A stretch of DNA of 50,015 nucleotides from a virus. Its lineage: Duplodnaviria > Caudoviricetes. Where the stretch lies: positions 1-50,015 of the IMG/VR virus record IMGVR_UViG_3300028595_000002; one strand, given 5' to 3'. Below, piece after piece: positions 1-50,015 of this stretch. A program made the translations under genes and the position numbers. Position 1 is the first letter of the stretch; each line of letters opens with the position of its first letter. The notes under the pieces were generated by a model that saw nothing but the letters and a program-made list of their open reading frames with translations, searched no databases and was not told where the DNA came from.

Positions 1-52
1 GTGCCACTATCACTCCAGTCTGAACCAAGTTGAGAACCATCTAAATATGCCT
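1..52. repeat. Terminal 52-bp overlap (identical to 49964-50015); circular assembly
   Basis: gtgccactat...aaatatgcct is present at both ends, and the tail-fibre reading frame continues in frame across the join. Confidence 0.95.
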
Positions 53-1739
53 TTACAGTCCCTGAAGATCTAGATAGTCCAATATGTTTCCAAGCTCCAG
101 TTCCAACTGTGCCAAAATCGTGCAGTGTGTCATCTATTTCTACCAACAATCCATTCCCAGAACTTAATGCAATCCTATTTGAGTTTGGGGTTGAGCTATC
201 TGAAATAACCCCGCCGGCACTAGAACTGTTTAAATAAATCCAGAAATCTATTGCAAAATCACCAGAAAGAGAGAAATCTGTTGAAGTTGGTGCGGTTAAA
301 TAATATAAGTCGGAACTCCCTCCAAAATTCATCACTTGATCAATGCTCGTTCCTGTAACTGTTTCAGTTGTTGCCGTTACGTTGCCACCAACATTTGTGA
401 TAGTGTGAGGGGAGTCCGCCCCATTATAAGAATAATCAACAAAATCATTATCGTTCAAAGCCAAAACAGTGGAGTCGTTGATTTCACCTAACCCACCCAA
501 AAAATGCCCACTTGTATCTGCAGTATCAACTACAAATTTAGTAATAGTTCCTTTCGCATCTTCGAAGTCCCATTTAGCAGAATAGGCATCTGAAATTATA
601 TCAGTTGTATCTGCATTAGATATTACCACTTTCTCATCTATAGTTATAGTCTTTGCTTCTAATTCTACTGTTCAATCATCTACTACATCTTCAAAAACTT
701 CTTGACTTACTCAGCTTCCTCAACTAGCAGTAGACGATATTTCTATCTCATTATTTACTGTTGTTGTTACCGTTATATCTGTTCAAGCTTTTATTTTTTT
801 TAGTTCTAAATCTACTCAAGTCTTTTGTAGATATACTCATTCTCAACTTGTTCAAACATTGCTAGCAGTATTACTTTCTCAACTTCATCAAGTAACCCAA
901 GCTGTTCAATTATAGCTTCTTATTGTATCATCTGTAGAATTCCAATATATATCTCATTCTTGTCAAGCTCCGTTAGCTGTTTCATAAGCATTATCGTCTG
1001 CATACACTTCTAAAGAAATAGCAGCTCCACTTCATCAAGCACCTACTTCACTTTCTGTTCAAGTAGAGTCTTTGGTATAAATCTTAGTAGTTCATCAGTC
1101 GTTTTTAGCATATATTTTTATACTATCAGCAGTTGGGTTTGCAATTACGGTTTGTTCTGATAATTGAATTTGTCCATCAATATGTTTAACTCCTTCAATG
1201 GTTACGCCTGTATCTGTGTTTTCCTCTGAAATAGTGTCGGTCTTTACGCCTGCGGAAAATGTTTTTTCGCCTGTTAATGTTTCTGCTCCTGCCAAGTGAA
1301 CAACGCTTGTATCAATGGCTTTTTCTGTGTCTAACTCATCAATAGCCCCTTGTACTGTTGTCGCTACAATATTTCCTGCTGAGATATTGCTTACTTGTGT
1401 TGCGGTTACTGAGTGCGGATTTGTTGTGCTGTCAATGTGTGTTTGTACCTCTAGTGCGGTTTTCGCATTTCCTGCTCCATCATCAATGCTTTCGGCTTTA
1501 TCAACAATATTATTCGCTGTTGTATCATAAACCGCCTTCGTCATATCTCCACTACCTGAGCCGACTTCACTTTCCGTACCAGATGAATCTTTGCTGTATA
1601 GCTTAGTAGTACCGCCATCATCTTTAGCGTATATCTTTAAGCTATTGGCTGAAGGATTACTAATCGCTGTTTGTTCAGAGACTTGTATTGCTCCGTCTTC
1701 TACGATTAGCCCCTTCTTAATCTTAAATTCATTACTCAT
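1..1739 (-). CDS. Tail fibre/adhesin A, 5' part (joins 48256-49963; 1148 aa total), two LamG/ConA-like domains
   Basis: ATG at 1739; with TGA=Gly there is no TAA/TAG down to base 1 and the frame matches the 48544-49932 ORF; LamG-like motifs (DFAIDFWI, WKHIGL, YLDG). Confidence 0.85.
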
Positions 1740-1748
1740 AGTATTAAA

Positions 1749-4700
1749 TTACATTTTATAAACTTTTATATCTTGCGTAGAGCCAGTTTTATTAGTTACT
1801 ACCCAAGTTTGTACTCAATCTTGCCATCATGTGGCAGAGATATCAAATCCGTTTACCGCCCCTGACTCGTATACATTTGTTGAGTAATTCAAAACCCCAT
1901 CATAATTAAAGGAAAGAGCGGATACTTGAGGGCTTGAGCCTTCATTTGTTGTTTTTAATGAAACTGCAATGTCAATATCATCTGCTACACTCCAAGCATC
2001 GTTCCATATTGTGTCACTAATAGCGTTAAATTGTGTTCCTGTTTGTTGGTTAGCTGTTACAGTTACGGCTTCTGAGATTGCTGCGTTTTGTTCATTTATA
2101 TTTGCGACTGTCCAAGTCTCTGCTCCGCTTGCTCCTGTATTGTAGCACCAAACTCATTCTGTCTCTCAAGTTATTGCATTGCTATTTGAGGCGATATTTC
2201 TCCAGGCTGTATCAGAAGTATCGTAAATTTGGAAAGTTACTTTGTCATCAAATGAAACTGAATAAAAAGCACTTTGACCTGCTGTTGCTTCTGTTACTGT
2301 TCCTGAGTTTAAATCATCCCAAGCAGTAGTGTTAAATTGTCCTGTTGTGCTTGTTACTGCTGTGTAAGTTTGATTTTCTGGTGATGAACCTGCTGTGTAA
2401 GACTCGGTAGGCACTGTGATTGTTGCTCCTGTCCAGCCCCTGTCTGTTCCTTTGGAAATTCTAAACTCATCTATATATCCTAAAAAATCAGAAACGTTGA
2501 CAGAAGGAGAAGTCCCAATTTGTAACGGGTCACCTGAAAAGTGAACTGGTGTTGATACACCATAATCAGTTTTGTTATATGTTCTTGTCCCATTGATATA
2601 AAAATTAATACTCCCGCCATCTCTGACTAATACTAAATGATTCCAACTGTTAGCAATAGCTGTTCCTACATCTACTGCTGCTATTACAAAAGTTCCAGAG
2701 GTAGAAGCTATCCATAATTTAATTGTTGTGCCATCGTGCATTAATATGATTCCATCAGAGTCAGTATTATTTCTAAAATTAAAAAGAGAGTGTAAGCCTG
2801 CTGGGAAACTACTGTATACCAAAAAATCAATTACAAAATCATCAGTTCCCCAGTTGTAATCCGCACTATTAGCAACGCTTAAATAATCCCCAGTCCCATC
2901 AAAATACATTGAAGTTGCACCGAAACCGAATTTTTTTTGGTCTGTTGTGTGAATCGCACCGCTTCTTGTAATTGTGTGAATTGTTCCACCAACCGAAGTA
3001 TCTTCAAAATCAGTATCACCATCAAAAGTATCTGACTGAATTAAAAGTTTTGTGTAGCTATCATTTCCTGCTGCACCATCACTTGTCAATTTAATTACAT
3101 CATCAACCATATTTGCCCCTCGTATCCAGTCAACATCATACTCACCTGTTGCTAAGGTTGCAGTAGTTCCGTCGTTGATTGAAAAAGCTACTTCATCAGT
3201 TGCTTCTCCGTCGTCGGTGATTGTGTTGATTGTGTAGGTTTTGTTGGTGTCGCCATTGATTTGGAAGTTTACATTTTCAATTACACGAGGTTCTGTGTTT
3301 CCTGAGCCGAGGGTGACTGGTGCTGTTGAGGTGTATGCTTCTGTTGGCACTGTAATGGTTGCTCCTGTCCAGCCTCTATCTGTATTTTGAGATATTCTAA
3401 ACTCATCAATATAACCATTAAAATATTGAGTATATGTTGAGACAGTATTTTTCCATGCACCAAGTGTTACCCCGTAGTCTGCTAAACCAAAAACAGTGGG
3501 GGGGGTTGAATCAACATCTATATCCCCGTCTATGTATGTTTTAAAAGTTGTGGCAGTTTTTACAATTGCGTAATGATGCCAATTGGTGTCATTTATAGAA
3601 ATGCTTCCACTATAAGAAGACCAAGAACTTGCACCTAAACCATTCCCAAAATAAACATCTATCTCATTTGATGTACTGTCTAAATATGGAGTGAATGTTT
3701 GTCCTGTGCTATATCCAATACTGAACAATTGCTCACCTACTGAGGTTCTCGTCCTTTTAAACCAAAAGTCAATTACCCATTCGCTATTAGCATTTAAATT
3801 AAAATCTGCATTTGGGCTCACTGATAAATAGTCATCTCCGTCAAACTGTATTGAAGTCGCCCCAAAGTTAGCTGTATCATGTGCATTCGTTGTTTCGTGG
3901 TGTGTGTCTGTGCCTCATGCAGAAATCCCACTTGTATGATCAGTTCCTCCAACACTGGTATCAGTAAAAGCGGTTGAACCGTCAGTCGTGTCTGACTGGA
4001 TTAAAAGCACTGTATCGCTATCATTTCCTGTCCCTATTATTGCAAAATGCCCACTTGTATCTGCAGTATCAACTACAAATTTAGTAATAGTTCCTTTCGC
4101 ATCTTCAAAGTCCCATTTAGCTTCATCTGTATCTGATATAATATCATCTGTAGATGATGAAGATTCCAAAACTTTTTTAGTTACACCTACTACAAAATTA
4201 CAAGAAACACTAACAGAATCATCATTAGCAACTGAATTAAAAGTTTCTATCCCTGATAGCCCCCCTCCTGTTGTTGAGGCGGTTATCTCTATCTCATCAC
4301 CCGTGCTAGTAACTGTTGTATTTAGTCATGCCTTGATCTTTTTGAATTCTAAGTCAACACCGTTTTTTTGTTTAAAAATTCCTTCTCCTGCTGTTCCTAT
4401 ATTAGAAACAGTGTTTGCCTCTCCAGAACCACCTCCCCCACCGTTGTCATCTACATACCCTTGAGTGGCTATTTTGTCATTATTAGAAGTTCCTGTCGCT
4501 ACACTTGAAAGTAAATCAGAAGAATTTAGTTTTATTCATGATGTAAAATCTTTTTCCCCTGCGACTGCCTCATTTCATGTTAATGCGACTGCTCCTGCCT
4601 GTGTCGCCGTTACTGAATGGGGGTTGCTAGTACTATCTAAATGCCCCCTTAAATCTGAGGCTGTCACTTCATTCGCATTTCCAGTATCTAACGCCGTATC

Positions 4701-5960
4701 ACTTCCCTGTGTGTGTTTTTTAGATATGGCGTCCGCTAAGTCTGTATCTGCCTTGATGGTTGCTAAATCTAAATGAGTCGTTGTATCTTCTAAATGTGTT
4801 TTTATCTCTAAGGCTGTTTTAGTATTACCCGCTCAATCATCTACGCTTTCTGCTTTATCTACGATGTTATTCGTATTAGTATCGTAAGTAGATTGTAGCA
4901 TATCTCCTGCCCCTCATCCTCAAGCATTGTCATCAACATATTTTTTAGTGGCTGGGTGATTATCTAGGGTTGGGGTGTATACGTCAGTATTATCTAATTC
5001 TAGTACATTTGATTTGTCTGATTTTAGATCCAATGCGTTTTGTAGGTCTGTTTGAGATGATAGCGTTCAAGTTATGCCTCCCCAAGTCCCTCAAGTTGTA
5101 CCTCAATCTTCCCCATCTATTTTTATTCTCTTTACCTTAACTGACCGATCATCACTTAAAGTAGTAGCTAATAATCTAACATTATTTGAATCTATATCTA
5201 CAGAGAACGCCAAATCGCTTGTGTCTCAAATGTCTGTAGTTAATTGTTCGTTGAATTCAACTGTATCTCATGTCCCGTCCCAAGCACTCATTATTGTACC
5301 TGTTCTTAAATTTGCCCCTTTCTTTACAACATAAAGCCAATGACAAGCCTCTACGTCAGTGTCAGCGAAAGTGTCAATTATTTCTGTTCAAGTATCTATA
5401 TCTAAGTTTTTTGCTCCTTCTAATCAAAATCATGTAATACTTACTCCTCCTCCCCCAGAACCTATCTCTGTTTCTGTTCATGTAGAGTCCTTTTGATAAA
5501 GCTTCGTAGTCCCTCAATCATCTTTAGCGTAAATTTTAATATTGTCAGCTTGGGGAGTATCAATTGTAGTTTGTTCGGTTAGTTGTATCTGTCCATCTAT
5601 AATCTTAACTCACTCTATCGCCACCCCTGAATCTGTAGTTAGCTCATTAATCGTATCTGTAGTAATCGTTTCTGTATACAATCTCCAATCAGTAGGATTT
5701 GTACTAGGCTGTGAATTTGTATTGATTGTTAGTGATAAGTAAATTTCTCAATTATAATTTACCATATCTCAAGCAGAGTAGGATTCTAAAGAATCCCAAG
5801 ATCACATTCTAGTTCAACTAACTCAAACTGCTGTTATATTTGCTATTTCATATACTCAACTAGCATTTACCTTTACGTATTTTCAAGCATCAGCCGTGGT
5901 TGGTTTAGGTGTGTCCCCCTCTCTAAGTTTTCATAGTAAAGGATCAAATTTGCTTCACAT
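1749..5960 (-). CDS. Tail fibre/adhesin B (1403 aa): N-terminal CBM5/12-like motif, two LamG/ConA-like domains
   Basis: ATG at 5960, TAA at 1749; joins track ORFs 3915-4169 and 2166-3821 in one frame; motifs WDSLESYSAGDMVNYNG and FNGYIDEFRIS; paralogue of fibre A. Confidence 0.85.
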
Positions 5961-6704: not shown

Positions 6705-7838
6705 TTACATTGCTAAGTCTTTAATATAAACATGTGAATTACTAGCGTTCTTGATTTGTAGAGTATATTCTCAAAGGATTCTCTGACTCCAGTAATCTGA
6801 TCCATTAGGAGTAGCATCTTCTGATGAAAATTGTCTATTCTGTAAAGGTACTAGACTAATTTTTGTCGGATCTATTATCGATATCAAGTTCTTATCAAAG
6901 TTTCTGCTAACTACTATATTAGATAGATTACCTAAATCACTTACAAAAGAAGTTACATAAGCCCCTGCTGTTGTTTCTGATCTAGTAATTATTGGATTAT
7001 TACCACTGGTATTAAACGCACTTATTTTTCTTGCTTGTATAGGATGACAAACTATAGTAGATAAATTATCTGCTCCATTTCACATTCATAATTCTATAGC
7101 ATTGTTTATCATAGTCATAGTTAATGCTCATGATGAGCCATCTATCACATTTCAAGATCCTTGTTTCAAAAACCATAACCAACCTCACATGGTTCAAGCT
7201 GTCGTTGCATCTCTTTCAACCCTAGGCATATTCACAGTAGTGTTAACCATATCATATGCGAGATTCTGTAACTGCCTCATTATCTGATAATCCATAGCGG
7301 TATTAATACCGTATTTCTTTACTTCCAAAGAAGTTTTAGAAATCTTGGCTGTTCTGTCAAATATTTGAGTATAGTTATATTCCACACTTGGCTCATATCC
7401 ATTATCTGGGTCTGCATCAGTCGCCTCGTTCTTAGGTCTAGCCATTAAATATACCATAGTACCACTTAATAGGTTCTCATCACTTGAACCACCATAAGCA
7501 GTCACTGCGAACTTGTCATTAGTAGTTATAGCTCCAACCTTACCTATTAAGGTACTAGGTGCTCAAGTAGCCTTTTCAAATCTTACAATATCCCCTTCTT
7601 TTAATCAAGAAGTAGAAGAGATATCAATTTCTCCATCTGCTGCAGTATGGTCTTGATCCATAGTCCAGCTAGTGGGACTTACTACATCTTCTAACCATTC
7701 ATGTTTTGTGGATGTCGCTACTCATCCTGTTCCTATCAGATTTACTAGTATTGGATCATTCTTTATTACCATCTCAAAAGCATCTGATAAATCTCTTTTG
7801 ACATTAGAATAATCGTAACTTAATTGTTTACCTGCCAT
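6705..7838 (-). CDS. Major capsid protein (SU10/DUF5309-like, 377 aa)
   Basis: Motifs KRDLSD, ATSTKHEWLED, YNYTQIF, RILGEYTLQIKN; position after scaffold and portal. Confidence 0.85.
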
Positions 7839-7854: not shown

Positions 7855-8400
7855 TTAATCTAATTTTTTAGCATTCGATATAAGATACATTAAATCCCCT
7901 CATTTTTTCGCCTTCTCAAAATCATCTGTTTTTATCTCCTTAGAAACCTCTTTAGTTCTAGTATCAAAATCTGGTTTCTCTATTGAAATTTTACTTAAGA
8001 ACTTAACTTGTTTCTCTAGGTTTAGATCATCGTAAATATCTCTATACTCATCTAAAGTTTTTCATAATTTACTCTCTAGTTCTTCTTTTGTCTTTTCTAG
8101 CTTCTCAGTCTTTGTTTGGATATAATTATCATATAGCTTTGCCTTTTCTGTTAATTCGTTAATTAATCATTCTTTTTCTTCTAATAACTTTTCATATTCT
8201 CATTTCTTTTTTCTTTCCTTATCTTCTAAGCCTTGTTTATACTTCCTTAATTCTTCTAATTCCTTCTGCTCTTGCTTCCTCTTATCTCTCTCTTGCTTAA
8301 TAGCAATCGTCTTATTTCTTTCTATTTCTTTTAATTTCTCATAATCCTCTTTACTAACTGTTGTTTCTTCTGCTACTTCTTCCTTTATTTTTTCATTCAT
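7855..8400 (-). CDS. Capsid scaffolding protein (181 aa, coiled coil)
   Basis: E/K-rich helical sequence directly upstream of the capsid gene; track ORF extended through TGA. Confidence 0.75.
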
Positions 8401-8580: not shown

Positions 8581-9951
8581 TTAGTTTCGATTAGATTGCG
8601 GACTCTGTTCATCGTCCTGTCCTTGAATTGTATTTTTTGAGCCGGTTTGTTGATCTGTAATTTGTTCATTTTTTGTTATTAATTTTAAATCTTCATTAAT
8701 TCTAGATACTTCCATATCTGTATCTTGGTCTGTGAATCATAAATACCTTTGTATAGCTGTAAATCTACTTATTATCTTTGCTTCCCTTGCTGTCGCTAAC
8801 TCCTCTACTAGTTCGGTATCTGATTTAGGTATTACATCTTCAAAGAAAATCTTTAATTCAGTTTTATCTCATCTTAGGTTTAGTTGTCACTCTTCTATTA
8901 GTACTATAAGTATTTGCTCTAGGGTTTTTGTAAATCTATCTCTAATTTCTTTTATAGCCTTAATAAACGCACCTTGCAAGATACTTCTACTAGTTCAACT
9001 TATTGCTCAAGTGTCATGTTTGATACCGAAAAAATCTACAGGAATACCAGTAATTCACGCTATCTTTCTTATTTGTTTTTCCTCATATTCCAGAGCTTTT
9101 TCTATTAATTGATTTTGATTATTTACAAACTCTATCCCTCATACTTCGTCATTGGTTGCTACTATCCTTCCTACCTTATCTATATCAACCAGTCAATTAC
9201 TATCTATCGCATAATCTGGAATTGCTATATTTTTGAAAATAGTATATTGTGAAGTATGCTTTAAGAACTCCGACTCAAACATAGCTATCTTTCTATCTAC
9301 TGAATATGTTAATTGAACTATCTTCTCTAAAATAGACTGGGGGTAATGTATATTCTTAGCGGAGGTATCTTTAGTCACAAATAAGGTATTTATATCCAAA
9401 CCAGTAACCACCTTATCTTGTAGGTTCGATGTGTCTTTTAGTGTATTTAAAGGCACTCTATCTCACTTCTTGTAGTCGTATTGGTTAGGTAGTTTGTATA
9501 ACTCATTATCAATATATCATTCTCAATACACTTGCTTGAGGATATAGTAATTTTCATCCTCATTGTTCGTATCTAGATATAAAGTATATACCCTATGCTC
9601 TTGATTATAGTAAACATAATTATCAGATTGAATATATTCAACCTTTAATTCACCTTGATCTCTTATCAATACTAATAAAGAATAGCCAAAAATTACAAAA
9701 TCTTTTATGCTGTCACATAAATTAATTGAAAAATCTATTTTAGGGTCTCATACATAATTTGCTAAAGTATTAGGCACTACAGTAAAAATTCAACTTCCAA
9801 CATTCATTAATTGAGTCATTGAGTCAGTTTTGAAAAACTTATCTTTTAAATATTGGTAGTTCTCATCAGTCGTATCTTTTAGGTAATCTCAAGTATAATA
9901 ATTCCTTAACTTAGCATTGTTAGTTAGTATGTCTTGTTCATAAGAACTCAT
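8581..9951 (-). CDS. Portal protein (SPP1-like, 456 aa)
   Basis: Open from ATG 9951 to TAA 8581 with TGA=Gly; size and position between terminase and scaffold; ISGTSRSILQG-type motif. Confidence 0.75.
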
Positions 9952-36844: not shown

Positions 36845-36866
36845 AAGATATTTTTATAATTATTTA

Positions 36867-39768: not shown

Positions 39769-40616
39769 TAGAAGTATTGATATCTATATAAAATATCTAT
39801 AGTAACTGTTCAAGATGAGTCATAATCATCTCATAAAAGTACTAAAGTATTTGCTCAAGGATCTAAGTATACAAAATTACTTCAACTAGTCCTATAAGAC
39901 ATTACATTTATTCATTCATCAGTTACTATAAAAGGTCTTTCTCTGTTATCTATTATTAGATTTGTGGTAGTTTTAGTTACTCAAAAGAATCTTCAATTAA
40001 CAGTATTTAATACTTTAGGATTAGTAATAGAACCAACTACATTTATTAAACAAGGACTTTTAAAATTTCAAGAATTAGTTATTTCTATCTCTCATATTAA
40101 ATCATTTAGAATAGTGCCTAATCTAGTACCTAAAGTTGTTCATCAAAAATAGCCTTGTAATCCATTAGAATATAATAGAGCTTGTCATGAATAACTTGAT
40201 TCTTCTGAATATAATTCAAACTTAAAATCTATTACATCATCTGATCTGGTATCTACTTGTAAAGGAGTATAAACCTTAGCCATACATCTAACATCTCTAC
40301 CACCTTCATCTGTCCAAAGTAACTCATAAAATCATCTATTGTCTAAAGTTGGTGTACCTTCTGGCTTTATTAGATTAGATAATTCGATATACGCCGTTTG
40401 TCTTTCTGCTTGAGTATCTCAAAATATACTTCAATTAAATGTAAATAATCTTCAAGAAGCTACAGTATTTCCAATATAAGATCAATGGTAGTTAACCCTA
40501 TCTGAAACGTTGCTTTTTAGTGTTGCGTTATATACAACAGTTGTGGCTGTGAGCTGAACAGTAACACTATCACTAGATAAATACGTTCAATTGTAGCTCC
40601 AATTTTGTGTTCTCAT
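39768..40616 (-). CDS. Distal tail (Dit-like) protein (282 aa)
   Basis: Directly after the tape measure gene (TAATG overlap); FVYLDPGANTL motif. Confidence 0.7.
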
Positions 40617-43600
40617 TATATAATATTAGTAATAGATCTATTAAAACCTTCCATATCAGCTATATTATTGATATTGTTATTTAATGAAACATTTTTTGTA
40701 CTATTATTGAAATTAGATATAGAACCTTGTCATGATTTTAGTGCTTGTTCCCTTGTTTTAGCTCATAGCTTTTGTAACTTAGTACCTAAACTTTCTACTA
40801 GATCTTGTTGAAATTTTATCTTTTCCTTAAATTCTTCTAAATATTTATTATCTAATTCTGATTTAGCATTTATATAATTCTCGTACAATTCTTTTTGCTT
40901 GTCTAAATTGTTTTTTGAAAGTTCTATCTCTAGTTGTAGCTTAGTATTCTTGTTATTTAGATCTCTAGCGTATTCTTGATTGTTAAAATCCGTTAGCTCA
41001 TCTAAGTTTACTTGTTCTCATTTTAAGGCTTTTCTTTGTATATTTAAACGCTCTCTCAAAGTTTGTTCCCTTTTAGCAAATTCTTCTTCTTTTTTACTGG
41101 CTTCTTCTTCCAATATTCTTGCTTTTTCTTTTTGTTCTAGTTCTATCTTTCTACTTTGGGTTAGTTCTCAATAAGATCTAGCATTTTTTATAATAGCATT
41201 ATCAACCTTTGCCTTTATCCTTTCCCCTTCTTGATCTAATCATATTTGCTTCTTTGAGAGTTCTTGTATTTCCTCAAAGGTTTGTATAGCACTAGAAAGA
41301 TCATCAGCTGAAATACCTTTAATACTAGATCATTTTAGTTTTTTTAAGGTTTCTATATCAATGGATCTAGCGAGTTTTATATCTACTCATTTGTTTTGTA
41401 ATTCATTTAATTGAGCTTCTAGTTCTATCTTTCTTTTTGCTATTTCTTCTTTTTCTTTTTCTATTTCTAAAAACCTACCTGCTAATCTATCAGAAGTTTC
41501 GGCTTCTATATCTTTTTTAGCTTGTCTTTGTCATTCTCTAAAATCATCTATTTCTTTGTTTAATTCTTTTAAAGAATTTTTATTAGCTCTTACTCATTTT
41601 TGTAATGTAGCTTGAAAGTCCTTACTGGCTTGAGTAGCCTTTTCAAGTGCTTTGGTTTCCTTATCAATAGCCTTTTTGGTTTCGTCTACATATTTAGAGG
41701 CTGTTTTGTATACATCTTTAAATATTTTTTTCTTGTTTTCTAGTCTTTGTTGTTCCTTTTTAGCATCTTCTTCGATAGCTTTTTCTAGTTCTTTTTCTAA
41801 TTTCAAGAAAAGCTTTTGTGCTTCTATTTTTGTTTTTTGTCTTTCTTCTTCCCTTTTTTTTAGTTTTTTATATTTTTTTTCTTCTATTTTTAATTGTTCA
41901 TCATTTAGATCTTTTAAAATTTCAAAGGTGTCTTTGCTTAATTTGCTTACATCTTTATCATATCTAGCGTAAGCCTCTTCTCTTGCTTGTAGTTTTTGAT
42001 AATAAGTTTTATCACTTTTGTCTATTGTTGATAACTCTCTTGCCAATTTTTCTTTTAGATTTTTGGTTATGAATTTTAATTGCTTTTCATCTAACTTTTT
42101 AAAGTTTTCCCTTTGTTTCTCGTAAGACTTCCTTTGTTTTTCAAGATTACTTAACCTTAGATCTGTCTTTTTTTCTTCTGCTTCATCGATTATATTTAAT
42201 ACCTTTTTATTAAGCTCTTTTTCGTTTTTTATAGTTTCCTCTGCTTGTTTTATTTTTAATAAAGCCTCTTTATCAATAGCTTCTTCTTTAGCTTTTAGTT
42301 CTTCCTCTATTAATTTTTTTGCTGATGTTCAACCTCCAGCTCATCCTCAACCGACTTCTCATCATCCTTTGTTTCACCAACTTCTTTTACCTGCTTCAGT
42401 TTTTCATTTTATTTCATCTATAATACCTTGTATAGTGTCATTCTTAGCTAATCTATCAACATCTGATATCTCTTTTCTTATTGCTTCTAACTGTGCTTTT
42501 TCTTTTCAATAAACTTCATTGTTTTTTCTTAATAAAGCATCTTTAGAGTTTATGATGTTATTAGTTTCCTTATCTACTGCTTCAAAAGATGTAACCGCAT
42601 TTTCTGTTAATGATTTTATATCATCTCATAATCAAGTAAAAACATCTGAAAATCCTTTTTGTTCATCTAATCATTGAGTTAGATTACCTAATATACTCCC
42701 AAATCTTCAGGTTATAGGGGTATAATCAAAATATTCTGGTATAAAGGTTTCTAGTGTTGGTGCTTTAAAATTAGTTCAAGCTACTTGATTTATACCTTGT
42801 ACCAGCTTCTTAACTGGGTTAGCAAAGCTTTCTAATACCCTAACATATTTTCTTAAAGCCCATAAAGCACCATTAGCTAGTGCTAATCATAAATTCTTTC
42901 AGGCATCAAAAAATAAGCCAACTCAATCACTAAATATAGTTCAAGCATTTTGAAAAGTATTCGCTATTATCTTTACAAAATTACCCATACCAGTGGCAAC
43001 GTAATCTACAAACCCACCTATCGCCTTTGCTCATATATGGAATACCCCCACCAGTATAGTAGCAAATATATTTAAGGTGTTTTTAACGTTTCCTATAGTT
43101 CAAGCCCATTCAACCGCAAAGTCTTTTAAATATTTCTTTACGTCTATATACATACTAAATACAGATATAGCCATTCAAGCTACTAGATCAACAAAAACCT
43201 TAGTGGTTTTAACTACTGTCGGCAAAAACCCTCTTCAAATAGCTTCCTGTAATCTCTGCCATCTATTTCTTTGTAGTTTTAATTTTGATTCAGTAGTATT
43301 AAATCTTTTTTCTGCTTCTTTTTGTAATGCATTATTATCTTTAAAGGCTTTATTAGCTCTTTCGATTTGTGTTCTTAATATATCTCCTGCTCAAGCCGCT
43401 TTTTGTAAGGCTTCTGTTAATCTTACATTTTTAGATATTAAATCCTCTATTACTATAGTTCATTCTTTCCCATATTCTCATACTCATTCTATAAATCTTG
43501 TAAAAGCTTCTGCGGCGTTTGTTTCCCACGCCTCTACGAACTGTTCAGAGGTCATATTAGCTACCTCTGCTATTTGTTCAAGGTTTTCTCATCAAGTTAA

Positions 43601-44872
43601 AACTTCTTTATTAATAACCTTGAAAGTTTTTCTAATAGCTGTACCTCAAGCCTCCGCCTCAACTCATAAAGAACTAAAAGCTGTTGCTATTCATAAAATA
43701 TCTTGTGTTGATACTCCTGCTATTTGTGATATAGCCGAGGTTCTATTGGCAAACTCTAGTATCTTAGATTCTGTAGTCGCCGAATTATTTCATAAGTCAA
43801 TTAAAGCCGCACCTAAGCGATCAAATTGATTTTTGGGTAGTTGTGTTACATTAGCTAATTTTGCGAATCATTCTGCGGCTTCTTCAGTAGTTAATCTAGT
43901 ACTAGCACCTACTTGTGCGATAACTCTAGTAAATTCTTTTAGATTTTCTATAGGAATATTTAATTGTCATCCCACTTCTGCGATACCTGCAATCTCTTCA
44001 AAAGTTAAAGGTATTTCTTTTGTAAGATCCTTTAGTTGTGATTTTAGTATTCCTAATTGTTCATTTGTAGCGTTTACTGTTTTCTCTACTCAAGCAAACG
44101 CCGACTCAAAAGATATAGCGGTAGTAATAGTTCAAGTAAAGAATTCTTTTATTTTTTGTAATCAAGTTGCAACTGCCACGAATGCCACGAATCTTTTTGT
44201 TGCCAGTCAAAGAGAACGTGAGAATTCTCTAATATTTACCTCTACTCATCAAAATAACTTACCTAAAACTGAAAGATCCTTTTTTCATGTCCTTAAAAAA
44301 TTTCTAAGCTCTCTTTTTGCTTTGGTAAGATCTTGCTTCAATAGGTTTATATCTGCCTTTATTTGTAGTTTTTTATCTTCTGATAATGTTTTGTCTTTTA
44401 ACAATTTCTTAGCTCGTTTTATTTTATCTTCTACATCTACTATATTTAATGATAACTTAATAGCTTGTGGGTCTTTTATCCTAGAAGTAAAACCCTCTAT
44501 ATCATCAGTGATTCTTTTTAAATCATCACTAGCTTTTTTGGTATCAAATCTAACCTTACTAGGTTCTCAAATTTTAGATTTTAATTTGCTTACCTGTTCC
44601 TCTAATTTTTCAAATTTTAGATTTAACTCTTCTGCTCCTCTATTTCTACCTAATCTAAGTAAGGTAGATTCTAGTTTACTAACTTCTTTATTGATTTTCT
44701 TAAACTGATCTTTTCCTAAAGTAACCCCTAAAGAGTTCAGTTTCTTAAAGGTTCATATTAGTTTCTCTAGTTTCTTTTTAAAAACTGATATTTGTTTATC
44801 TGCCTGATCTATTGAGTTGTTGAAGCTTTGGGTTTCAACCTCAAGTTTTATCTCAATCTTTTCCTCCTGCAT
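40616..44872 (-). CDS. Tail tape measure protein (1418 aa)
   Basis: TP901-type core AISFESAFAGVEKTV, GGQLNIP, LGVEAEAGGTA; long coiled coil. Confidence 0.9.
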
Positions 44873-45482: not shown

Positions 45483-46322
45483 CTATAGATCATCTGTATA
45501 ATAAATAACCGATCAGTTATTATTACATAAGATGTTTAAAGGAGAGTTAGGAAGATCACTTGCTCTATTTACATCTAAGAATCAAGTTATCAATTCTCAT
45601 TCAAATCAACAATCTATAAAGTAATATACCTTTACCTTGCTAGTTGCACTATCTATAGAAGTAATTCTTACCACTAGTCTTGGTATTTCTCTAGATTTTA
45701 CATTTACTCCGATGTAAGATGAAGCAGTTGGAACATAATCATAATCTGCATCTAATACTCAAGCCTGTGCGGTTATAGGAACGATATAAGTATATCCTAA
45801 TTCTCCATTTACTCAATTACCTACATAAGTAGCGTAATCAGTTCAAGAAACAAGAGCTACTGTATCGGCATCTATTACTATATTTGTTACTATAGTATCT
45901 GCTCCATTTTTATTTAATAGTTTTATTGGCTGTCATACTGTCCATCCAGTTCAAAGAGCCTCTCAAGTAACATTTACAGTTCATCAAGCTACTTGTAGAA
46001 TATTTTTACCTGTTAGCTTATTTATTGCATCTAATTCTAGTACTTCATACCGAGTTCATGAGATAGTCATCTCTGGTTTAGTGCTTGAATATATTACTCA
46101 ATTATCATCTGCCTCTATCTTTACAACATTAGCTCAATAATTTTCACTTACCTGTAAATCTATAATAGAAGCCAATCTCTCATAAGAAAGAGCGTCTAAT
46201 TCAGATCTAACAGTATCTGCATTAGTCATGTCATCTGCTAAAGTGGTTATGGAAGAAGAATAACTTGCTACTTCTATAATTCAAGGATTGACACTCAATG
46301 CTTTTGAATTTGTTGCTGTCAT
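45483..46322 (-). CDS. Major tail tube protein (279 aa)
   Basis: Open with TGA=Gly; position after the neck genes; followed by a terminator-like hairpin. Confidence 0.7.
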
Positions 46323-46559: not shown

Positions 46560-46943
46560 TTAATTTAAATAATATATATAATAATTCTTATCTATTAATG
46601 GACGATTTAAGGTGTCATAAGTATTAGCCACACTACCAGTAGAAAGTATTTTTATGACGTTGAATTCTCACCTAGCCTCTATCGTTAAAATATCGTTCAA
46701 TGTATTACTTATCTCGTCAAGATCAGCATAAGTAATTCAAGTCTCATGTCAAATTATTTTTACTGACACTATGTCATAACTATACACCTCTCTTATTTTT
46801 TGCCATTCACGCTCCATTACTATAAACACCCCTGATTGTTGTTCTGTAGGATATCAATAGTAAATTCTATTTCAAACCAAATCAGTTAATGTTGTCTTTG
46901 TATTTAAGTAGGTTATCAATGTACCTATATTTAAATAATTCAT
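46560..46943 (-). CDS. Tail terminator-like protein (127 aa)
   Basis: LTDLVGNRIYYGYP motif; neck gene order. Confidence 0.7.
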
Positions 46944-47302
46944 TTTTTTATTATATTATAGACATTATTAATGTTTTCCTTTACGGTTTTTCAATAAGTG
47001 TTACTTCAAATTCATTTATAGAAAACAGTGCTATCATCGGTAGGCGGTCATTTATGGTACTTAAAAGGTTTTGTTTGTCATTTATATCATTCTTCTAGTG
47101 TTTTAGCATAATCAACATCATTGCTAAGTGTACCTATTAATTTTCAATCCCTATATTCTATAGATTCTATCTTATGTTTTTTTATAAAGGTATGAGTATC
47201 TGTTGGAGATAGTTTTTCCGCTGTTTGCTTTAATAATAACAAAGCCTCTATGGTTCTGTCTTCTAAATTATCCCTAACTATTTTTTTATATTTACTAAGC
47301 AT
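46931..47302 (-). CDS. HK97 gp10-like neck protein (123 aa)
   Basis: LSPTDTHT, NDVDYAKTLEEG motifs. Confidence 0.7.
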
Positions 47303-47669
47303 CCTTTTCAAAAATTAATTCTAATTCTATAGAATCGTTAGTATTCCCACTCATCCTATTCATTCTAACTGATTGTATTTTGTATACTCATCAATTACTT
47401 AGGTCTGGATCGGATAATACAAATCTCATTCATTTAGTCACTAATGTTTTTTCTGGTTGTATTAAGGCAGTAATCCTTTCTTGTTGTTGTTCATCAAATC
47501 AACTTCTATCCCAATATAACTCTTGATATCAAGTGATCTTTTTATGGTAGAAGTGACAAGGGATACCTGCATATACATCTACATATGTTTTTTGCTCCAC
47601 CCCTGCTACTACCGTTATTGTTTTATTTTGTATAGTACAAGAATGGTCTAAATAATCTAATAAAGCCAT
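47295..47669 (-). CDS. Head-closure/adaptor protein (124 aa)
   Basis: LDHSCTIQ...VYAGIPCH pattern; neck gene order. Confidence 0.65.
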
Positions 47670-47670
47670 A

Positions 47671-48117
47671 TTAAGTCTTTTGTCTGTAAAATATATTCCT
47701 ATAAGGTTCTAAGTATATTTTAGCTTTATCTGGTATCGTTTTTAAGACGTTCCTAGTTCATGAGGTATATTTTATCCTTCTATCACCAGCGACCTCTTCA
47801 GTGACCTCTCAGTAGGTACTAGATACAGTATCTCAAGATTCAAATATTTGCTCGCACACATAGACGGTAGCAATTTTTATATCATTTGGGATAACCTCAA
47901 TATTTCAATCCTCATCTTGAGTGGGGAAGATAAAACTCTGGGATTCACTATATTTAGTTCAGTAATGTAGTATATAGTCATCTATCGCAAATTGTGCCTC
48001 ATAAATTAGTCTTTTTATTTGGTTATCCGTAAGGGAAGCTATTCAAGTTTTATTAGTGGAGTCCTTGAGATCCTGTATAGTTATATATATAGGATCTTCT
48101 ATGAATAGATTATTCAT
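47671..48117 (-). CDS. Head-tail connector protein (148 aa)
   Basis: YITIQDLK, AIDDY, IPNDIKIAT, LLEPYR. Confidence 0.7.
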
Positions 48118-48255
48118 TTTTCAAATTTTTTAATATAGCCTTAAGTTCTGTTATTTTATTTTCTATTCTAATGCTTATAGAATTAGGTTCTTTAAGTAAC
48201 CCTTGTAAGGTAGCGATCTTATGTTCTATCTTATCTATAGTGTTATTATACATAA

Positions 48256-50015
48256 TTAAAATTTATTAACAATAAAACTTTTAGTCTCTCAAGAGACATT
48301 TTTAACTGTCCAGGTCTTCGTCCCTATTCAAAATCAACTAGTGGTAGCTTCAAAACTTCAAGTAGCAATTCAATCATTGAAAGTAGCCGTTCTACCTAGT
48401 ACTCAATCGTAATTAAATACCAAAGATGAAGTTTGAGGATTTGAACTTGCACTTGTTGTTTTTAGTGAAACTGCAATGTCAATATCATCTGCTACACTCC
48501 AAGCATCGTTCCATATTGTATCGCTAATAGCGTTAAATTGTGTTCAAGTTTGCTGGTTGGCTGTTACGGTTACGGCTTCTGAAATCGCTGCGTTTTGTTC
48601 ATTTATATTTGCAACTGTCCAAGTCTCCGCACCGCTTGCCCCTGTGTTGTAGCACCAAATCCCCTCTGTCTCTCCTGTTATTGCGTTGCTATTTGAAGCG
48701 ATATTTCTCCAAGCTACGGCGGTTGTGTCGTAAATTTGGAAAGTTACTTTGTCATCAAATGAAACTGAATAAAAAGCACTTTGCCCTGCTGTTGACTCTG
48801 TTACTGTTCCTGAATTTAAATCATCCCAGGCAGTAGTGTTAAATTGTCCTGTTGTGCTTGTTACTGCTGTGTAAGTTTGATTTTCTGGTGATGAACCTGC
48901 TCCGTAAGCTGATGTGGGGGGGGTGAAATTAGACGTCCATCTAGCAGTCTTAGAAATGCGTATTTCATCCAGATAACCATTATATGCACCAACATCAGAT
49001 GCTGTCTTGTAGAATCGTCCTATTGTAAGCCCGTGGTTACCATCGTTAATTGTTACGTTTCCACTACTCCAATTAGTAATTTGACCATCTATAAATATTC
49101 CTAAATCAGATACTCCTGTTCCTTTTCTTACTATTGCAACGTGAGCCCATGTATTAACAGATAAATTAGTGTCTGAGGTTGCTATTGTTGACCCTGTTCT
49201 ATCCATTGTTAAACCAACAGTCCCAGAACTATTCGCATAAATAATCCAATTGCCATCATCATTGTCAGATGTTGACAAAAATCCGTTCAGTGAATTTAAT
49301 GCTGAAGGTCTTACCCAGAAATCAATAGTAAAATTACCAGTTCCAAAATCAAAATCAGTTGAGTTAGGAGCTGTTAAATAATCCCCAGTCCCGTCAAAAT
49401 ACATTGAAGTTGTACCTAATTGTTGTTGTGCAGTTGTGTGAATCGCACCGCTTCTTGTAATTGTGTGAGTTTCACTTTTACCAACCGAAGTATCAATAAA
49501 ATTTGTATCTCCATCAAAAGTATTCGATTGAATTAAAAGCACTGTATCGCTATCATTTCCAATCCTAACACCATCACTTGTTAATTTAATCACATCATCA
49601 ACCATATTTGCCCCTCGTATCCAGTCAACATCATACTCGCCTGTTGCCAAGGTTGCAGTAGTTCCGTCATTGATTGAAAAAGCTACTTCATCAGTTGCTT
49701 CTCCGTCGTCTGTGATTGTGTTGATTGTGTAAATATTTGTGTCGCCGTTGAGTTGGAAGTTTACGTTTTCAATTACACGTGGTTCGTCGTTTCCTGTTCC
49801 GATGGTGATTGGTGCTGTTGATGTGTATGCTTCTGTTGGTTTCCCAACAACTGAAAAATCAATTGCTTCGCCTTTTTGGATGCGTAGATTAGCAATTTTC
49901 CCATCAAGATAATAATATGCATTAGAATACATCCTACCAATATTTATATTGCCAAAATCTAATGTGCCACTATCACTCCAGTCTGAACCAAGTTGAGAAC
50001 CATCTAAATATGCCT
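48256..50015 (-). CDS. Tail fibre/adhesin A, 3' part (continues from 1-1739)
   Basis: Track ORF 48544-49932 extended upstream across the circular join and downstream through TGA to TAA 48256; LamG motif YNGYLDEIRISKTARW. Confidence 0.85.

What the first reader, a model, noticed from the sequence alone, without database searches (positions are those of the whole stretch)
1..50015. Complete phage genome using UGA=Gly genome-wide; candidate Gracilibacteria/Absconditabacteria virus
Seen: TGA occupies invariant Gly sites (TerL and DnaB Walker A, dcd RSSLGRLG, AEP SGNG, NrdD RVMGY). Paralogous fibres give an internal control: TGA at 2166 and 2154 aligns with GGA/GGG at 48673 and 48661, and TGA at 48544 aligns with GGA at 2037. 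Both early and late genes use it, and no suppressor tRNA or release factor is visible. Leaders are A/T-rich without Shine-Dalgarno motifs. Established: code 25 is used by these CPR lineages. Inference: the host natively uses code 25; few phages of such hosts are characterised.
Basis: partly seen in the sequence, partly recalled or inferred. Interest (0 to 1): 0.75.

Follow-up and report, generated by a model that had tools for sequence, protein, structure and literature searches.

The report
Phage that reads UGA as glycine
This is a complete 50-kb tailed phage genome in which the stop codon UGA encodes glycine, a known but rare kind of phage, and its tail-fibre genes carry UGA-free pieces shared with phages that use other genetic codes.

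Summary
The window is a complete IMG/VR virus record of 49,963 unique bases plus a 52-bp end overlap. Reading through TGA raises ORF cover from 33.6% to 87.6%. TGA means glycine, not tryptophan. Glycine scores best of all 20 residues against homologue profiles. In a TGA-free relative, 19 of 20 aligned fibre TGAs face GGN. No TGA faces TGG in 80 cells against standard-code relatives. TGA makes up about half of the glycine codons in both the early and the late modules. 55 of 63 ORFs contain it. No tRNA or release factor was found, and there are no Shine-Dalgarno motifs. The host is therefore most likely a code-25 patescibacterium (Absconditabacterales or BD1-5). That is an inference, because I could run no spacer or prophage test. 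Such phages are already described (Liu et al. 2023; RSA-ATP1, 2026), so this is a new member of a known kind. Two points are additional. Public protein sets hold this phage translated with Trp at TGA. Both fibre genes are mosaics: their TGA-free LamG cores are 85-100% identical in DNA to the fibre of a TGA-free phage, and related fibres occur in two other code-25 contigs and one TAG-recoded contig.

The parts
1..52 (.). 52-bp overlap, identical to 49964-50015. It marks a circular or permuted assembly, not physical ends, and it lies inside fibre gene B.
   Evidence: L037 is collinear across the junction.
1..1739 (-). Fibre gene B, 5' part. The gene is 1148 codons and continues at 49963 down to 48256. 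The N-terminal segment 1098-1739 has 0 TGA in 18 Gly codons. Segment 672-1097 has 19 TGA in 23 Gly codons. The core begins at 671.
48256..50015 (-). Fibre gene B, 3' part. The TGA-free LamG core is 48547-49963 plus 1-671, with 0 TGA in 70 Gly codons. Over B codons 400-700 (window 49603-49963 plus 1-539) it is 91-100% identical in DNA to L037, measured in 50-codon windows. The C-terminus 48259-48546 has 7 TGA.
1749..5960 (-). Fibre gene A, 1403 codons, with two Laminin_G_3 domains. The core 2169-4325 has 1 TGA in 69 Gly codons. The flanks carry 30 TGA.
6705..7838 (-). Major capsid protein (SU10_MCP, 188.4 bits). It has 10 TGA and 20 GGN.
7855..8400 (-). Lys/Glu-rich protein between the portal and capsid genes. 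A scaffold role is inferred from its position and from conserved synteny in L017-L019.
8581..9963 (-). Portal protein (phrog_533, 71.8 bits).
10022..12430 (-). Large terminase, 45 TGA, interrupted by an intein.
11273..12304 (-). Intein of 344 residues carrying a LAGLIDADG endonuclease. It sits between the K and S of the TerL P-loop and is absent from an intein-less homologue.
12441..12896 (-). Small HTH protein next to TerL. A small-terminase role is inferred from position only.
14143..14330 (.). Array of at least 13 ATCCTAAA-type repeats spaced 10-12 bp apart, in the non-coding gap between the divergent modules. It may be iterons or operators (inferred).
14752..15120 (+). ArdC-N-like ORF. It is the only ORF of at least 100 codons without TGA (10 GGN).
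15926..16582 (+). DUF4116 repeat protein. The conserved Gly of all 8 repeats is encoded by TGA.
18982..20175 (+). Replication initiation protein (phrog_270).
20469..21542 (+). ORF with DIDIR and SGNGLH motifs.
21547..22551 (+). DnaB-like helicase (95.0 bits with Gly, 76.4 with Trp).
24476..28072 (+). 1198-aa protein with repeated HTH_17 domains (170.2 bits with Gly, 74.7 with Trp).
29760..30332 (+). dCTP deaminase (150.4 bits), 9 TGA.
30639..31448 (+). PD-(D/E)XK nuclease.
31459..31611 (-). 50-aa ORF equal to the C-terminal glycyl-radical tail of NrdD. The Gly of RVMGY, recalled as the radical-bearing residue, is encoded by TGA.
31978..32571 (-). Amidase_2 endolysin.
33503..35008 (-). Glycine-rich tail-region protein. 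82 of its 501 codons are TGA. It is 25% Gly under table 25 and would be 16% Trp under table 4.
35027..38408 (-). Two paralogous tail-fibre-like genes (35027-36844 and 36867-38408), 35 and 40 TGA.
38416..40616 (-). Tail-tip genes: a 450-aa protein of unknown family and a Dit-like protein (SPP1_Dit, found only with Gly).
40616..44872 (-). Tape measure protein (PhageMin_Tail, 65.4 versus 58.8 bits).
45483..46322 (-). Major tail protein (phrog_807).
46560..48117 (-). Four small head-tail joining genes. Homologues sit at the same place in L017-L019.

Best explanation
The window is the complete genome of a tailed phage with a long, probably non-contractile tail. Its genes are written in NCBI table 25: UGA is a glycine codon and UAA and UAG are the only stops. 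UGA is the commonest single glycine codon, about half of all glycine codons, and it is used equally in the replication module and in the structural and lysis modules. The phage encodes no tRNA and no release factor. It therefore cannot impose this code on a cell. It must replicate in a host whose own tRNA-Gly(UCA) reads UGA and which lacks RF2. That points to Patescibacteriota of the orders Absconditabacterales (SR1) or BD1-5 ('Gracilibacteria'). What is shown: the reassignment, its identity as Gly, its spread across the genome, the absence of code-shifting genes, and completeness. What is inferred: the host clade. The two large fibre genes are recombinant mosaics. Their older segments carry UGA like the rest of the genome. 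Their LamG (lectin-fold) cores carry none and are near-identical to the fibre of a phage without in-frame TGA, so they are most likely recent imports from a gene pool that does not use UGA as a sense codon.
For: Coding density rises from 33.6% to 87.6%. Pfam scores under table 25 versus table 4 are higher with Gly in 9 of the 10 best-scoring families and equal in 1 whose domain has no TGA. The values are HTH_17 170.2/74.7, DUF4116 124.6/91.2, DnaB_C 95.0/76.4, SU10_MCP 188.4/171.7, PDDEXK_1 60.6/50.2 and PhageMin_Tail 65.4/58.8. LAGLIDADG_3, Terminase_3 and SPP1_Dit are found only with Gly. In the 20-residue scan, Gly is first for dcd (255.1, next 239.0, Trp 238.8) and for MCP (405.7, next 392.3, Trp 383.4). 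In 139 dcd homologues, Gly is the top residue in 7 of 9 TGA columns, with 113, 133, 137 and 136 of 139 in four of them, and Trp is at most 4 per column. MCP: in L001, L002, L017, L018, L019 and L020 the 10 TGA sites face GGN 7, 8, 7, 7, 6 (plus 1 TGA) and 4 times. None of the 60 cells is TGG. Against standard-code relatives there are 80 cells: 50 Gly and 0 Trp. Fibre B against the TGA-free L037 gives 19 of 20 TGA facing GGN. The related code-25 contigs L048 and L049 give 9 of 10 and 13 of 13. Composition: Gly is 7.75% and Trp 0.83% under table 25, against 3.80% and 4.78% under table 4. 55 of 63 ORFs, and 34 of 35 ORFs of at least 100 codons, contain TGA. The TGA share of Gly codons is 52.5% in the early module and 50.5% in the late module. 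All 63 ORFs stop at TAA (39) or TAG (24). No tRNA was found and no RF-1 domain (the control rang in 10 of 14 genomes). Three IMG/VR relatives, L017-L019, are recoded in the same way. Table 25 is restricted to GTDB class JAEDAM01, that is Absconditabacterales plus BD1-5 (passages of PMC13695967). Code-25 phages of these hosts are documented (PMC10746230 sections 6, 7 and 9; PMC13059738 passages). Mosaic fibres: TGA counts are 1 of 69, 0 of 70 and 0 of 18 Gly codons in the cores, against 59% elsewhere (binomial P about 1e-22). GGN usage also differs (chi-square P 0.0006). DNA identity to L037 is 85-90% over BLAST segments of up to about 890 nt, and 91-100% in 50-codon windows. The same junction between TGA-rich and TGA-free sequence is present in the independent contig L049, at 93.8% over 804 nt.
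Against: I obtained no direct host link. In the repeated HTH protein, two columns have TGA in some copies and TGG in one copy, which would be synonymous under table 4. In that same protein several secondary, overlapping HTH families score higher with Trp: HTH_23 49.3 versus 32.2, HTH_50 35.7 versus 22.2, HTH_69 31.8 versus 20.5, HTH_Tnp_ISL3 38.5 versus 32.5, and HTH_Mga 49.4 versus 46.5. In the low-identity DnaB alignment to PDB 2vye only 3 of 15 aligned TGA sites face Gly, and none faces Trp. Two of the 9 dcd TGA columns are mostly Val or Gln in homologues. In paralogue comparisons 8 of 28 non-TGA partners are Ser codons. The closest standard-code relatives of the capsid module lie on contigs binned with Bacteroidota MAGs. 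This shows that the structural module is not confined to phages of code-25 hosts.
Confidence: 0.85

Rival explanations
1. The phage uses table 4 (UGA=Trp) and infects a Mycoplasmatales-type host. This is how the public protein collection translated it.
For: The record's proteins are stored with W at every TGA: 9 of 9, 14 of 14 and 8 of 8 sites. Two TGA/TGG alternations occur in the HTH repeats. A few minor HTH families score higher with Trp.
Against: Trp ranks 3rd and 16th of 20 residues in the profile scans, 16 and 22 bits below Gly. 0 of 80 cells against standard-code relatives and 0 of 60 MCP cells face Trp or TGG. One protein would be 16% Trp, with runs such as WWWGGWWW. Proteome Trp would be 4.78% and Gly 3.80%.
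Confidence: 0.01
2. The phage recodes UGA itself while infecting a standard-code host, like the TAG- or TGA-recoded phages of gut bacteria, and uses the recoding to time late genes.
For: Its nearest standard-code capsid relatives sit on contigs binned with Bacteroidota MAGs and also lack Shine-Dalgarno motifs.
Against: No suppressor tRNA, release factor or tRNA synthetase was found in any ORF scanned. TGA is equally frequent in the replication and structural modules, so early genes could not be expressed in a standard-code cell. The Liu et al. 2023 discussion (PMC10746230, section 9) names only UGA=Trp and UAG=Gln for such phages. That UGA=Gly has never been reported for them is my recollection, not a search result.
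Confidence: 0.03
3. The host reads UGA as Gly but belongs to a lineage outside Absconditabacterales and BD1-5 that is not yet recognised as code 25.
For: The gTranslate paper reports a few Patescibacteriota genomes outside class JAEDAM01 that are predicted to reassign UGA (passages of PMC13695967). I have no host link.
Against: Those outliers sit next to JAEDAM01 and may belong to it (same passages). All documented code-25 phages are linked to these two orders (PMC10746230, PMC13059738).
Confidence: 0.08
4. The TGA-free fibre cores are not imports. They are native sequence kept free of UGA by selection, for example for decoding speed or accuracy.
For: In the relatives L017-L019 the capsid gene has 0, 0 and 2 TGA in 28-29, 25 and 28 Gly codons, and the major tail gene has 5 of 26 and 6 of 25, while genome shares are 48-64%. 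So strongly expressed genes do avoid TGA. In L048 even core segments with only 44-52% DNA identity to L046 have no TGA.
Against: Fibres are low-copy virion parts. The switch from 19 of 23 to 0 of 70 happens at a sharp boundary inside one ORF. The TGA-free stretch coincides with 91-100% DNA identity to a phage of an unrelated capsid type that has no in-frame TGA.
Confidence: 0.15

Closest known systems
Code-25 phages predicted to infect Absconditabacteria and Gracilibacteria (Liu et al. 2023, mBio, PMC10746230)
   Same: Dense in-frame TGA, almost no genes callable under table 11, and uncultivated contigs largely from IMG/VR. Host code and phage code match.
   Different: Those phages were linked to hosts by CRISPR spacers, and this record has no such link here. 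I could not see their supplementary tables, so I cannot say whether this record is one of their 547 scaffolds. In the sections I read (6, 7, 9) the paper does not describe TGA-free islands inside code-25 genomes or DNA-level exchange with TGA-free phages.
RSA-ATP1, Absconditicoccaceae tailed phage 1 (PMC13059738, passages read)
   Same: A complete circularly assembled tailed phage that can be translated only with table 25.
   Different: RSA-ATP1 is 39 kb, has internal UGA in 60% of its ORFs and carries four tRNA genes, including tRNA-Gly(TCA). This phage is 50 kb, has TGA in 55 of 63 ORFs and carries no tRNA. I did not compare the two sequences directly. MCP and portal searches of GenBank phages found nothing closer than 30.5% identity, or nothing at all.
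'Code 11-compatible' phages targeted by code-25 bacteria (Liu et al. 2023)
   Same: L037/L046, the partner in the fibre exchange, has the described features. It has no in-frame TGA. Where TGA is the first stop (3 of 17 ORFs), a TAA or TAG follows within 1-9 codons.
   Different: That description fits L037, not the window. L037's host is unknown, and it may simply be a standard-code phage.
Stop-codon-recoded phages of standard-code hosts (UAG=Gln, UGA=Trp; as summarised in PMC10746230 section 9)
   Same: In-frame stop codons are read as sense codons.
   Different: Those phages carry suppressor tRNAs and often release factors or synthetases, and they concentrate recoding in late genes. None of these features is met here.
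Standard-code phage-like contigs L001 and L002 (44 and 42 kb, binned with Bacteroidota MAGs)
   Same: Capsid 49% and 46% identical by tblastn. L001 also shares the portal, tape measure and major tail protein. TerL homologues are present in their genomes. Their leaders lack Shine-Dalgarno motifs.
   Different: They use the standard code. Their TerL has no intein.

Membership tests
NCBI translation table 25 (UGA=Gly) | UGA occurs in frame in most genes, and reading it through restores normal gene density | tested here: met
   33.6% to 87.6% cover. 55 of 63 ORFs contain TGA.
NCBI translation table 25 (UGA=Gly) | UGA aligns with glycine in homologues, not with Trp or another residue | tested here: met
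   Gly is the best of 20 residues, and 41 of 43 fibre TGAs in three code-25 contigs face GGN in L037/L046.
NCBI translation table 25 (UGA=Gly) | UAA and UAG remain stops | tested here: met
   All 63 ORFs end in TAA (39) or TAG (24). TAG or TAA read-through gives lower cover than TGA read-through.
NCBI translation table 25 (UGA=Gly) | The decoding cell has tRNA-Gly(UCA) and lacks RF2 | not testable with these tools
   The host genome is unknown. The phage has neither a tRNA nor a release factor.
Phages of Absconditabacterales / BD1-5 | CRISPR spacer match, integrated copy, or close protein sharing with such genomes | not testable with these tools
   The one genome-contig scan returned only genomes of 2.2-4.7 Mb for the 10 checked. 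Portal and amidase searches gave no named hits. The supplements of PMC10746230 are closed.
Phages of Absconditabacterales / BD1-5 | Shares the host's code without code-shifting genes | tested here: met
Tailed phage (Caudoviricetes), long non-contractile tail type | HK97-type capsid protein, portal, large terminase, tape measure, Dit and major tail protein | tested here: met
   SU10_MCP, phrog_533, Terminase_3 plus a TerL homologue, PhageMin_Tail, SPP1_Dit and phrog_807. No sheath protein appeared among the ORFs scanned.
Table 4 (UGA=Trp) phage | UGA aligns with Trp | tested here: not met
Self-recoding phage of a standard-code host | Phage-borne suppressor tRNA or release factor, with recoding biased to late genes | tested here: not met
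Intein (in TerL) | An insert inside a conserved host-protein motif that is absent from homologues, ends in His-Asn followed by Ser/Thr/Cys, and carries a homing endonuclease | tested here: met
   Residues 43-386 are absent from the G002 homologue, whose flanks align. The junction reads ...THN|S. LAGLIDADG_3 scores 38.8 bits and there is a weak PI-PkoII match.
Intein (in TerL) | N-terminal Cys or Ser nucleophile (class 1) | tested here: not met
   The first intein residue is Ala (alignment). I recall non-canonical classes without this nucleophile, but I did not test for them.
Archaeo-eukaryotic primase (ORF 20469-21542) | Match to an AEP/Prim-Pol family or fold | tested here: inconclusive
   No Pfam, PHROG or PDB match. 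Only the recalled motifs DxD and sGxGxH are visible.

The most novel reading that the evidence does not exclude
A LamG tail-fibre cassette that contains neither in-frame TGA nor in-frame TAG moves by recombination among phages written in different genetic codes. These are code-25 phages (this window, L048, L049), a phage without in-frame TGA (L037/L046), and apparently a TAG-recoded phage that uses TGA as a stop (L047). Five of these contigs (L046-L050) come from one metagenome assembly. Gene flow into code-25 phages is one-way for TGA-free DNA. After import, GGN to TGA changes accumulate, so TGA density would report how long a segment has resided in the code-25 lineage. Because recombination needs both DNAs in one cell, this would be evidence, independent of spacers, that phages with other codes enter the same CPR cells, or that CPR cells take up their DNA.
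Probability: 0.45. Interest if true: 0.7.

Novelty: new member of a known kind. Interest (0 to 1): 0.5.

Why it matters
The record gives a clean, complete reference for a code-25 phage that relies wholly on its host's decoding. It also shows that a large public protein collection holds this phage with Trp in place of about half of its glycines. Those entries misrepresent the proteins in homology searches and in fold prediction. The mosaic fibres bear on an open question raised by Liu et al. 2023: whether phages without in-frame TGA really enter code-25 bacteria. Near-identical DNA shared between a code-25 phage and a TGA-free phage makes that question testable by recombination analysis, long reads and proximity ligation. 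It also suggests that receptor-binding modules cross a genetic-code boundary in one direction.

Tried and rejected
Host linkage. The genome search draws no relatives for a virus record and does not accept a taxon name as its centre. I spent the single genome-contig scan on the capsid protein. It returned 16 loci, all readable under the standard code. The 10 genomes I checked are 2.2-4.7 Mb and no taxonomy is given for them. So I had no handle on a CPR genome and could run no spacer or prophage search.

Sequencing runs: none was listed.

Portal and amidase searches gave 3 and 1 non-self hits, without organism names. Of 10 clusters looked up, only two members carried any name and only one named an organism, an archaeal dCTP deaminase. 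GenBank phages: the best capsid identity is 30.5%, and the portal has no match.

Donor search for fibre A's core in the 5.8-billion protein set gave at most 48% identity by that query. The informative partner, L037, appeared only when loci were fetched and compared with fibre B.

The AEP label has no Pfam, PHROG or PDB support.

Codes considered and rejected: TAG or TAA reassignment, table 4, and a phage-borne suppressor.

The DnaB alignment to PDB structures is at too low an identity to be useful beyond the Walker A motif.


Full report
WHAT THE RECORD IS. The window is a single IMG/VR virus record of 50,015 bases with 30.7% G+C. Its first and last 52 bases are identical. The record is classed as having direct terminal repeats and has a CheckV completeness of 100. 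The 52-bp overlap lies inside a gene: one open frame of 1148 codons runs from 1739 down through position 1 and on from 49963 to 48256. An independent contig, L037, is collinear across this junction. Window 49366-50015 and 1-889 match L037 11371-9885, and the two matches overlap by 52 nt. The ends are therefore an assembly overlap of a circular or permuted genome of 49,963 bases, and the genome is complete.

THE CODE: IS TGA A SENSE CODON? ORFs of at least 60 aa cover 33.6% of the sequence under table 11 and 87.6% when TGA is read through. Reading through TAG gives 51.5% and TAA 75.4%. I worked with a set of 63 ORFs. To build it from the 68 ORFs, I dropped five short plus-strand ORFs lying antisense inside fibre gene B, and I replaced the partial ORF 48256-49932 with the full junction-spanning gene. 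In this set there are 609 TGA, 586 GGN and 128 TGG among 15,419 codons. 55 of 63 ORFs contain TGA, as do 34 of the 35 ORFs of at least 100 codons. All 63 ORFs end in TAA (39) or TAG (24).

THE CODE: WHICH RESIDUE?
- Composition. Under table 25 glycine is 7.75% and tryptophan 0.83%. Under table 4 they would be 3.80% and 4.78%. One tail-region protein (33503-35008) has 82 TGA in 501 codons and would read WWWGGWWW under table 4.
- Pfam fits. Among the best-scoring family of each protein, 9 of 10 score higher with Gly and one is equal because its domain has no TGA. The values are HTH_17 170.2/74.7, DUF4116 124.6/91.2, DnaB_C 95.0/76.4, SU10_MCP 188.4/171.7, PDDEXK_1 60.6/50.2, PhageMin_Tail 65.4/58.8 and Laminin_G_3 88.2/88.2. 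LAGLIDADG_3, Terminase_3 and SPP1_Dit are detected only with Gly. Against this, several secondary HTH families that overlap HTH_17 score higher with Trp, for example HTH_23 at 49.3 versus 32.2.
- Neutral query. I translated dCTP deaminase with X at TGA and searched 1.84 billion cluster representatives. Of 149 non-self hits I aligned the 139 that are at most 300 aa long. Gly is the commonest residue in 7 of the 9 TGA columns, with 113, 133, 137 and 136 of 139 in four of them. Trp never exceeds 4 per column. Two columns are mostly Val or Gln.
- Twenty-residue scan. I scored the query with each of the 20 residues at TGA against profiles built without it. Gly is first for dcd (255.1; next Gln 239.0; Trp 238.8). 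Gly is also first for the capsid protein against 14 standard-code homologues (405.7; next Ser 392.3; Trp 383.4, which ranks 16th).
- Codon-level comparison. The capsid gene's 10 TGA sites face GGN 7, 8, 7, 7, 6 (plus 1 TGA) and 4 times in L001, L002, L017, L018, L019 and L020. None of the 60 cells is TGG. Across all standard-code loci, 80 TGA cells in locally conserved context give 50 Gly, 8 Arg, 7 Ala, 4 Asn, 4 Ser, 3 Thr, four singletons and 0 Trp. The cells are not independent, because one site is counted in several loci.
- Internal paralogues. Over all between-gene paralogue pairs in conserved context, 53 TGA cells face 25 TGA, 17 GGN, 8 Ser, 1 Leu, 1 Thr, 1 Asp and 0 TGG.
- Counter-evidence. 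Among the seven near-identical HTH repeats, two columns have TGA in some copies and TGG in one copy. In the low-identity DnaB alignment to PDB 2vye, only 3 of 15 aligned TGA sites face Gly, including the Walker A Gly, and none faces Trp.

WHO DECODES IT? ARAGORN, Rfam at gathering thresholds, and the tRNA model at E up to 1 all find no tRNA. No RF-1 domain is present, and the control rang in 10 of 14 genomes. No synthetase appeared in any ORF scanned. TGA is 52.5% of Gly codons in the plus-strand replication module and 50.5% in the minus-strand structural and lysis module. The first genes expressed therefore already need UGA=Gly decoding, so the phage depends on a cell that decodes UGA as Gly natively. 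Table 25 is known only from Absconditabacteria and 'Gracilibacteria'. In GTDB terms that is class JAEDAM01, with orders Absconditabacterales and BD1-5 (passages of PMC13695967). Liu et al. 2023 (PMC10746230; abstract and sections 6, 7 and 9 read) linked phages from IMG/VR and GVD to these bacteria by spacers. They found 44 of 50 Absconditabacteria phages and 4 of 38 Gracilibacteria phages to be clearly code 25. PMC13059738 (passages read) describes a complete code-25 phage, RSA-ATP1, which carries its own tRNA-Gly(TCA). The kind of phage is therefore known. The host assignment for this record remains an inference, because none of my routes to host genomes worked.

OTHER POINTS OF THE FINDING. 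Leaders lack Shine-Dalgarno motifs. 0 of 42 contain GGAG, AGGAG or GGAGG between -22 and -3, and G is at most 5% at most positions from -21 to -6. The same holds for the code-25 relatives L017-L019, for L037, and for L001 and L002. It does not hold for five other capsid relatives, where 8-10 of 14-21 leaders have GGAG or GAGG. 'NrdD' is a 50-aa ORF that matches only positions 531-562 of 562 in PF13597 (33.6 bits, cut-off 26.2). The Gly of its RVMGY motif, which I recall as the glycyl-radical residue of NrdD, is encoded by TGA. The 'AEP' label has no family support.

GENOME MAP.
- Minus strand, 1-12896: two large fibre genes, the capsid protein, a scaffold-like protein, the portal, TerL and a small HTH protein.
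- About 12.9-14.7 kb: a non-coding gap with an ATCCTAAA repeat array.
- Plus strand, 14.7-31.4 kb: an ArdC-N-like ORF, a DUF4116 repeat protein, a replication initiator, the unassigned ORF 20469-21542, a DnaB-like helicase, a 1198-aa multi-HTH protein, dCTP deaminase and a PD-(D/E)XK nuclease.
- Minus strand, 31.4-48.1 kb: the NrdD-tail ORF, an Amidase_2 endolysin, the Gly-rich protein, two fibre-like paralogues, tail-tip genes including a Dit-like protein, the tape measure, the major tail protein and head-tail connectors.
- No integrase appeared among the ORFs scanned.
- TerL carries a 344-residue intein with a LAGLIDADG endonuclease between the Lys and Ser of its P-loop. An intein-less homologue aligns on both sides of the insert.

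RELATIVES. GenBank phages are distant. The best capsid identity is 30.5% among 204 matching records, and the portal has no match. The portal has 3 non-self homologues at E up to 1e-5 in the word-indexed 5.8-billion protein set. Three IMG/VR contigs, L017-L019, have capsids 54-59% identical. They are TGA-recoded too: cover by ORFs of at least 100 aa rises from 0.32, 0.28 and 0.19 to 0.93, 0.86 and 0.81. The nearest standard-code capsid relatives, at 51% and 48% in the best segment, are 44-kb and 42-kb contigs binned with Bacteroidota MAGs. The public protein collection stores this record's own proteins with W at every TGA: 9 of 9, 14 of 14 and 8 of 8 sites. Some relatives in that collection show the same signature, for example P0274 with 4.7% Trp and 1.8% Gly.

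TGA-FREE ISLANDS AND WHAT THEY ARE. TGA is not spread evenly.
- Fibre A's core (2169-4325) has 1 TGA in 69 Gly codons.
- Fibre B's core (48547-49963 plus 1-671) has 0 in 70, and its N-terminus (1098-1739) has 0 in 18.
- The 142 codons between them (672-1097) have 19 in 23.
- The rest of the genome has 552 TGA against 377 GGN (coordinates).
- The binomial probability of the core counts is about 1e-22. The cores are richer in G+C (0.38-0.40 versus 0.30) and use GGN codons differently (P 0.0006).

A viral contig, L037, is the same sequence as metagenome contig L046. It carries a 925-aa fibre that is 72% identical to fibre B. L037 has only 4 in-frame TGA in 5156 codons, against 3.0% TGA in the off-frames. 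Three of the four lie 1-9 codons before a TAA or TAG. Its capsid family is different (Phage_capsid_4, with an SU10 adaptor protein). DNA identity between fibre B and L037 is 91-100% per 50-codon window across B codons 400-700, and 64-74% in the TGA-bearing flanks. In those flanks B's TGAs face GGA (11), GGC (5), GGG (2), GGT (1) and AAC (1).

The same mosaic, including the junction between TGA-rich and TGA-free sequence, is present in two further TGA-recoded contigs. L049 is 93.8% identical to window 324-1127, and its TGAs face GGN 13 of 13 times. L048's TGAs face GGN 9 of 10 times. The cores are therefore best explained as imports from a pool that does not use TGA as a sense codon. Such transfer can only run one way for TGA-free DNA.

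Two alternatives remain open. One is selection against TGA: it is supported by TGA avoidance in the capsid and major tail genes of L017-L019. The other is repeated import from diverse sources: it is suggested by TGA-free core segments of L048 that share only 44-52% DNA identity with L046.

A FURTHER CONTIG WITH A THIRD CODE. L047 comes from the same assembly as L046 and L048-L050. It carries a fibre of this family with no TGA and no TAG. Downstream of the fibre lie tightly packed genes that hold 36 in-frame TAG, and four of them stop at TGA. ORF cover rises from 0.57 under table 11 (ORFs of at least 100 aa) to 0.92 with TAG read through (ORFs of at least 80 aa). L047 shares 96% DNA identity over 981 nt with L046, and its contig ends 231 nt upstream of the fibre. 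An assembly chimera at this shared repeat is therefore not excluded.

VERDICT. The phage is a new member of a known kind. Its added value is a clean, complete reference genome, a translation error in public protein sets, and DNA-level evidence that fibre modules cross the boundary between genetic codes.

Noticed in passing
L047:1-12847: This metagenome contig appears TAG-recoded. ORF cover is 0.57 under table 11 and 0.92 with TAG read through. It has 36 in-frame TAG, and four genes stop at TGA. Its 875-aa fibre of the window's family has neither TAG nor TGA. An assembly chimera is not excluded, because the contig ends 231 nt upstream of the fibre inside a stretch 96% identical to L046.
   Followed up: partly
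window 31459-31611 (-): A stand-alone 50-aa ORF equals the C-terminal glycyl-radical tail of class III ribonucleotide reductase (PF13597 positions 531-562 of 562, 33.6 bits). It could be a 'spare part' for an oxygen-damaged host NrdD, by analogy with GrcA/YfiD for pyruvate formate-lyase. That analogy is recalled, not tested.
   Followed up: partly
window 11273-12304 (-): TerL carries a 344-residue intein with a LAGLIDADG endonuclease between the Lys and Ser of the P-loop. Its first residue is Ala, not Cys or Ser, so it is not a canonical class 1 intein. It holds 28 of TerL's 45 TGA codons.
   Followed up: partly
proteins P0001, P0271, P0276 (public collection): The record's own proteins are stored with Trp at every TGA, that is, a table 4 translation. 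Relatives such as P0274 (4.7% Trp, 1.8% Gly) look mistranslated in the same way.
   Followed up: yes
L017:4030-5172, L018:5308-6450, L019:6010-7152 and the major tail genes of L017 and L019: In three related code-25 phages the capsid gene has 0, 0 and 2 TGA, and the major tail gene has 5 of 26 and 6 of 25, while their genomes use TGA for 48-64% of Gly codons. Strongly expressed genes seem to avoid TGA. In the window the capsid share is 10 of 30.
   Followed up: partly
window 14143-14330; 14620-14701 and 15154-15235: The first feature is an array of at least 13 ATCCTAAA-type repeats at 10-12 bp spacing, lying between the divergent modules. The second is an 82-nt repeat, 83% identical between its two copies, that ends in TTG(T/C)AT, a 17-nt spacer and TATAAT. 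These are candidate iterons or operators and early promoters.
   Followed up: no
window 14752-15120 (+): This ArdC-N-like ORF (22.9 bits, cut-off 22.6) is the only ORF of at least 100 codons without TGA. It has 10 GGN, and its GC3 is 0.34 against 0.21 for the other genes. It may be another import.
   Followed up: no
window 24476-28072 (+): A 1198-aa protein has seven near-identical 65-residue HTH_17 repeat units, further HTH copies, and a Cys-rich C-terminus. Its function is unknown. Two repeat columns alternate between TGA and TGG.
   Followed up: partly
L001, L002, L037: The standard-code or TGA-free relatives closest to this phage also lack Shine-Dalgarno motifs (0 of 22, 0 of 18 and 0 of 15 leaders). 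More distant capsid relatives have them in 8-10 of 14-21 leaders.
   Followed up: partly
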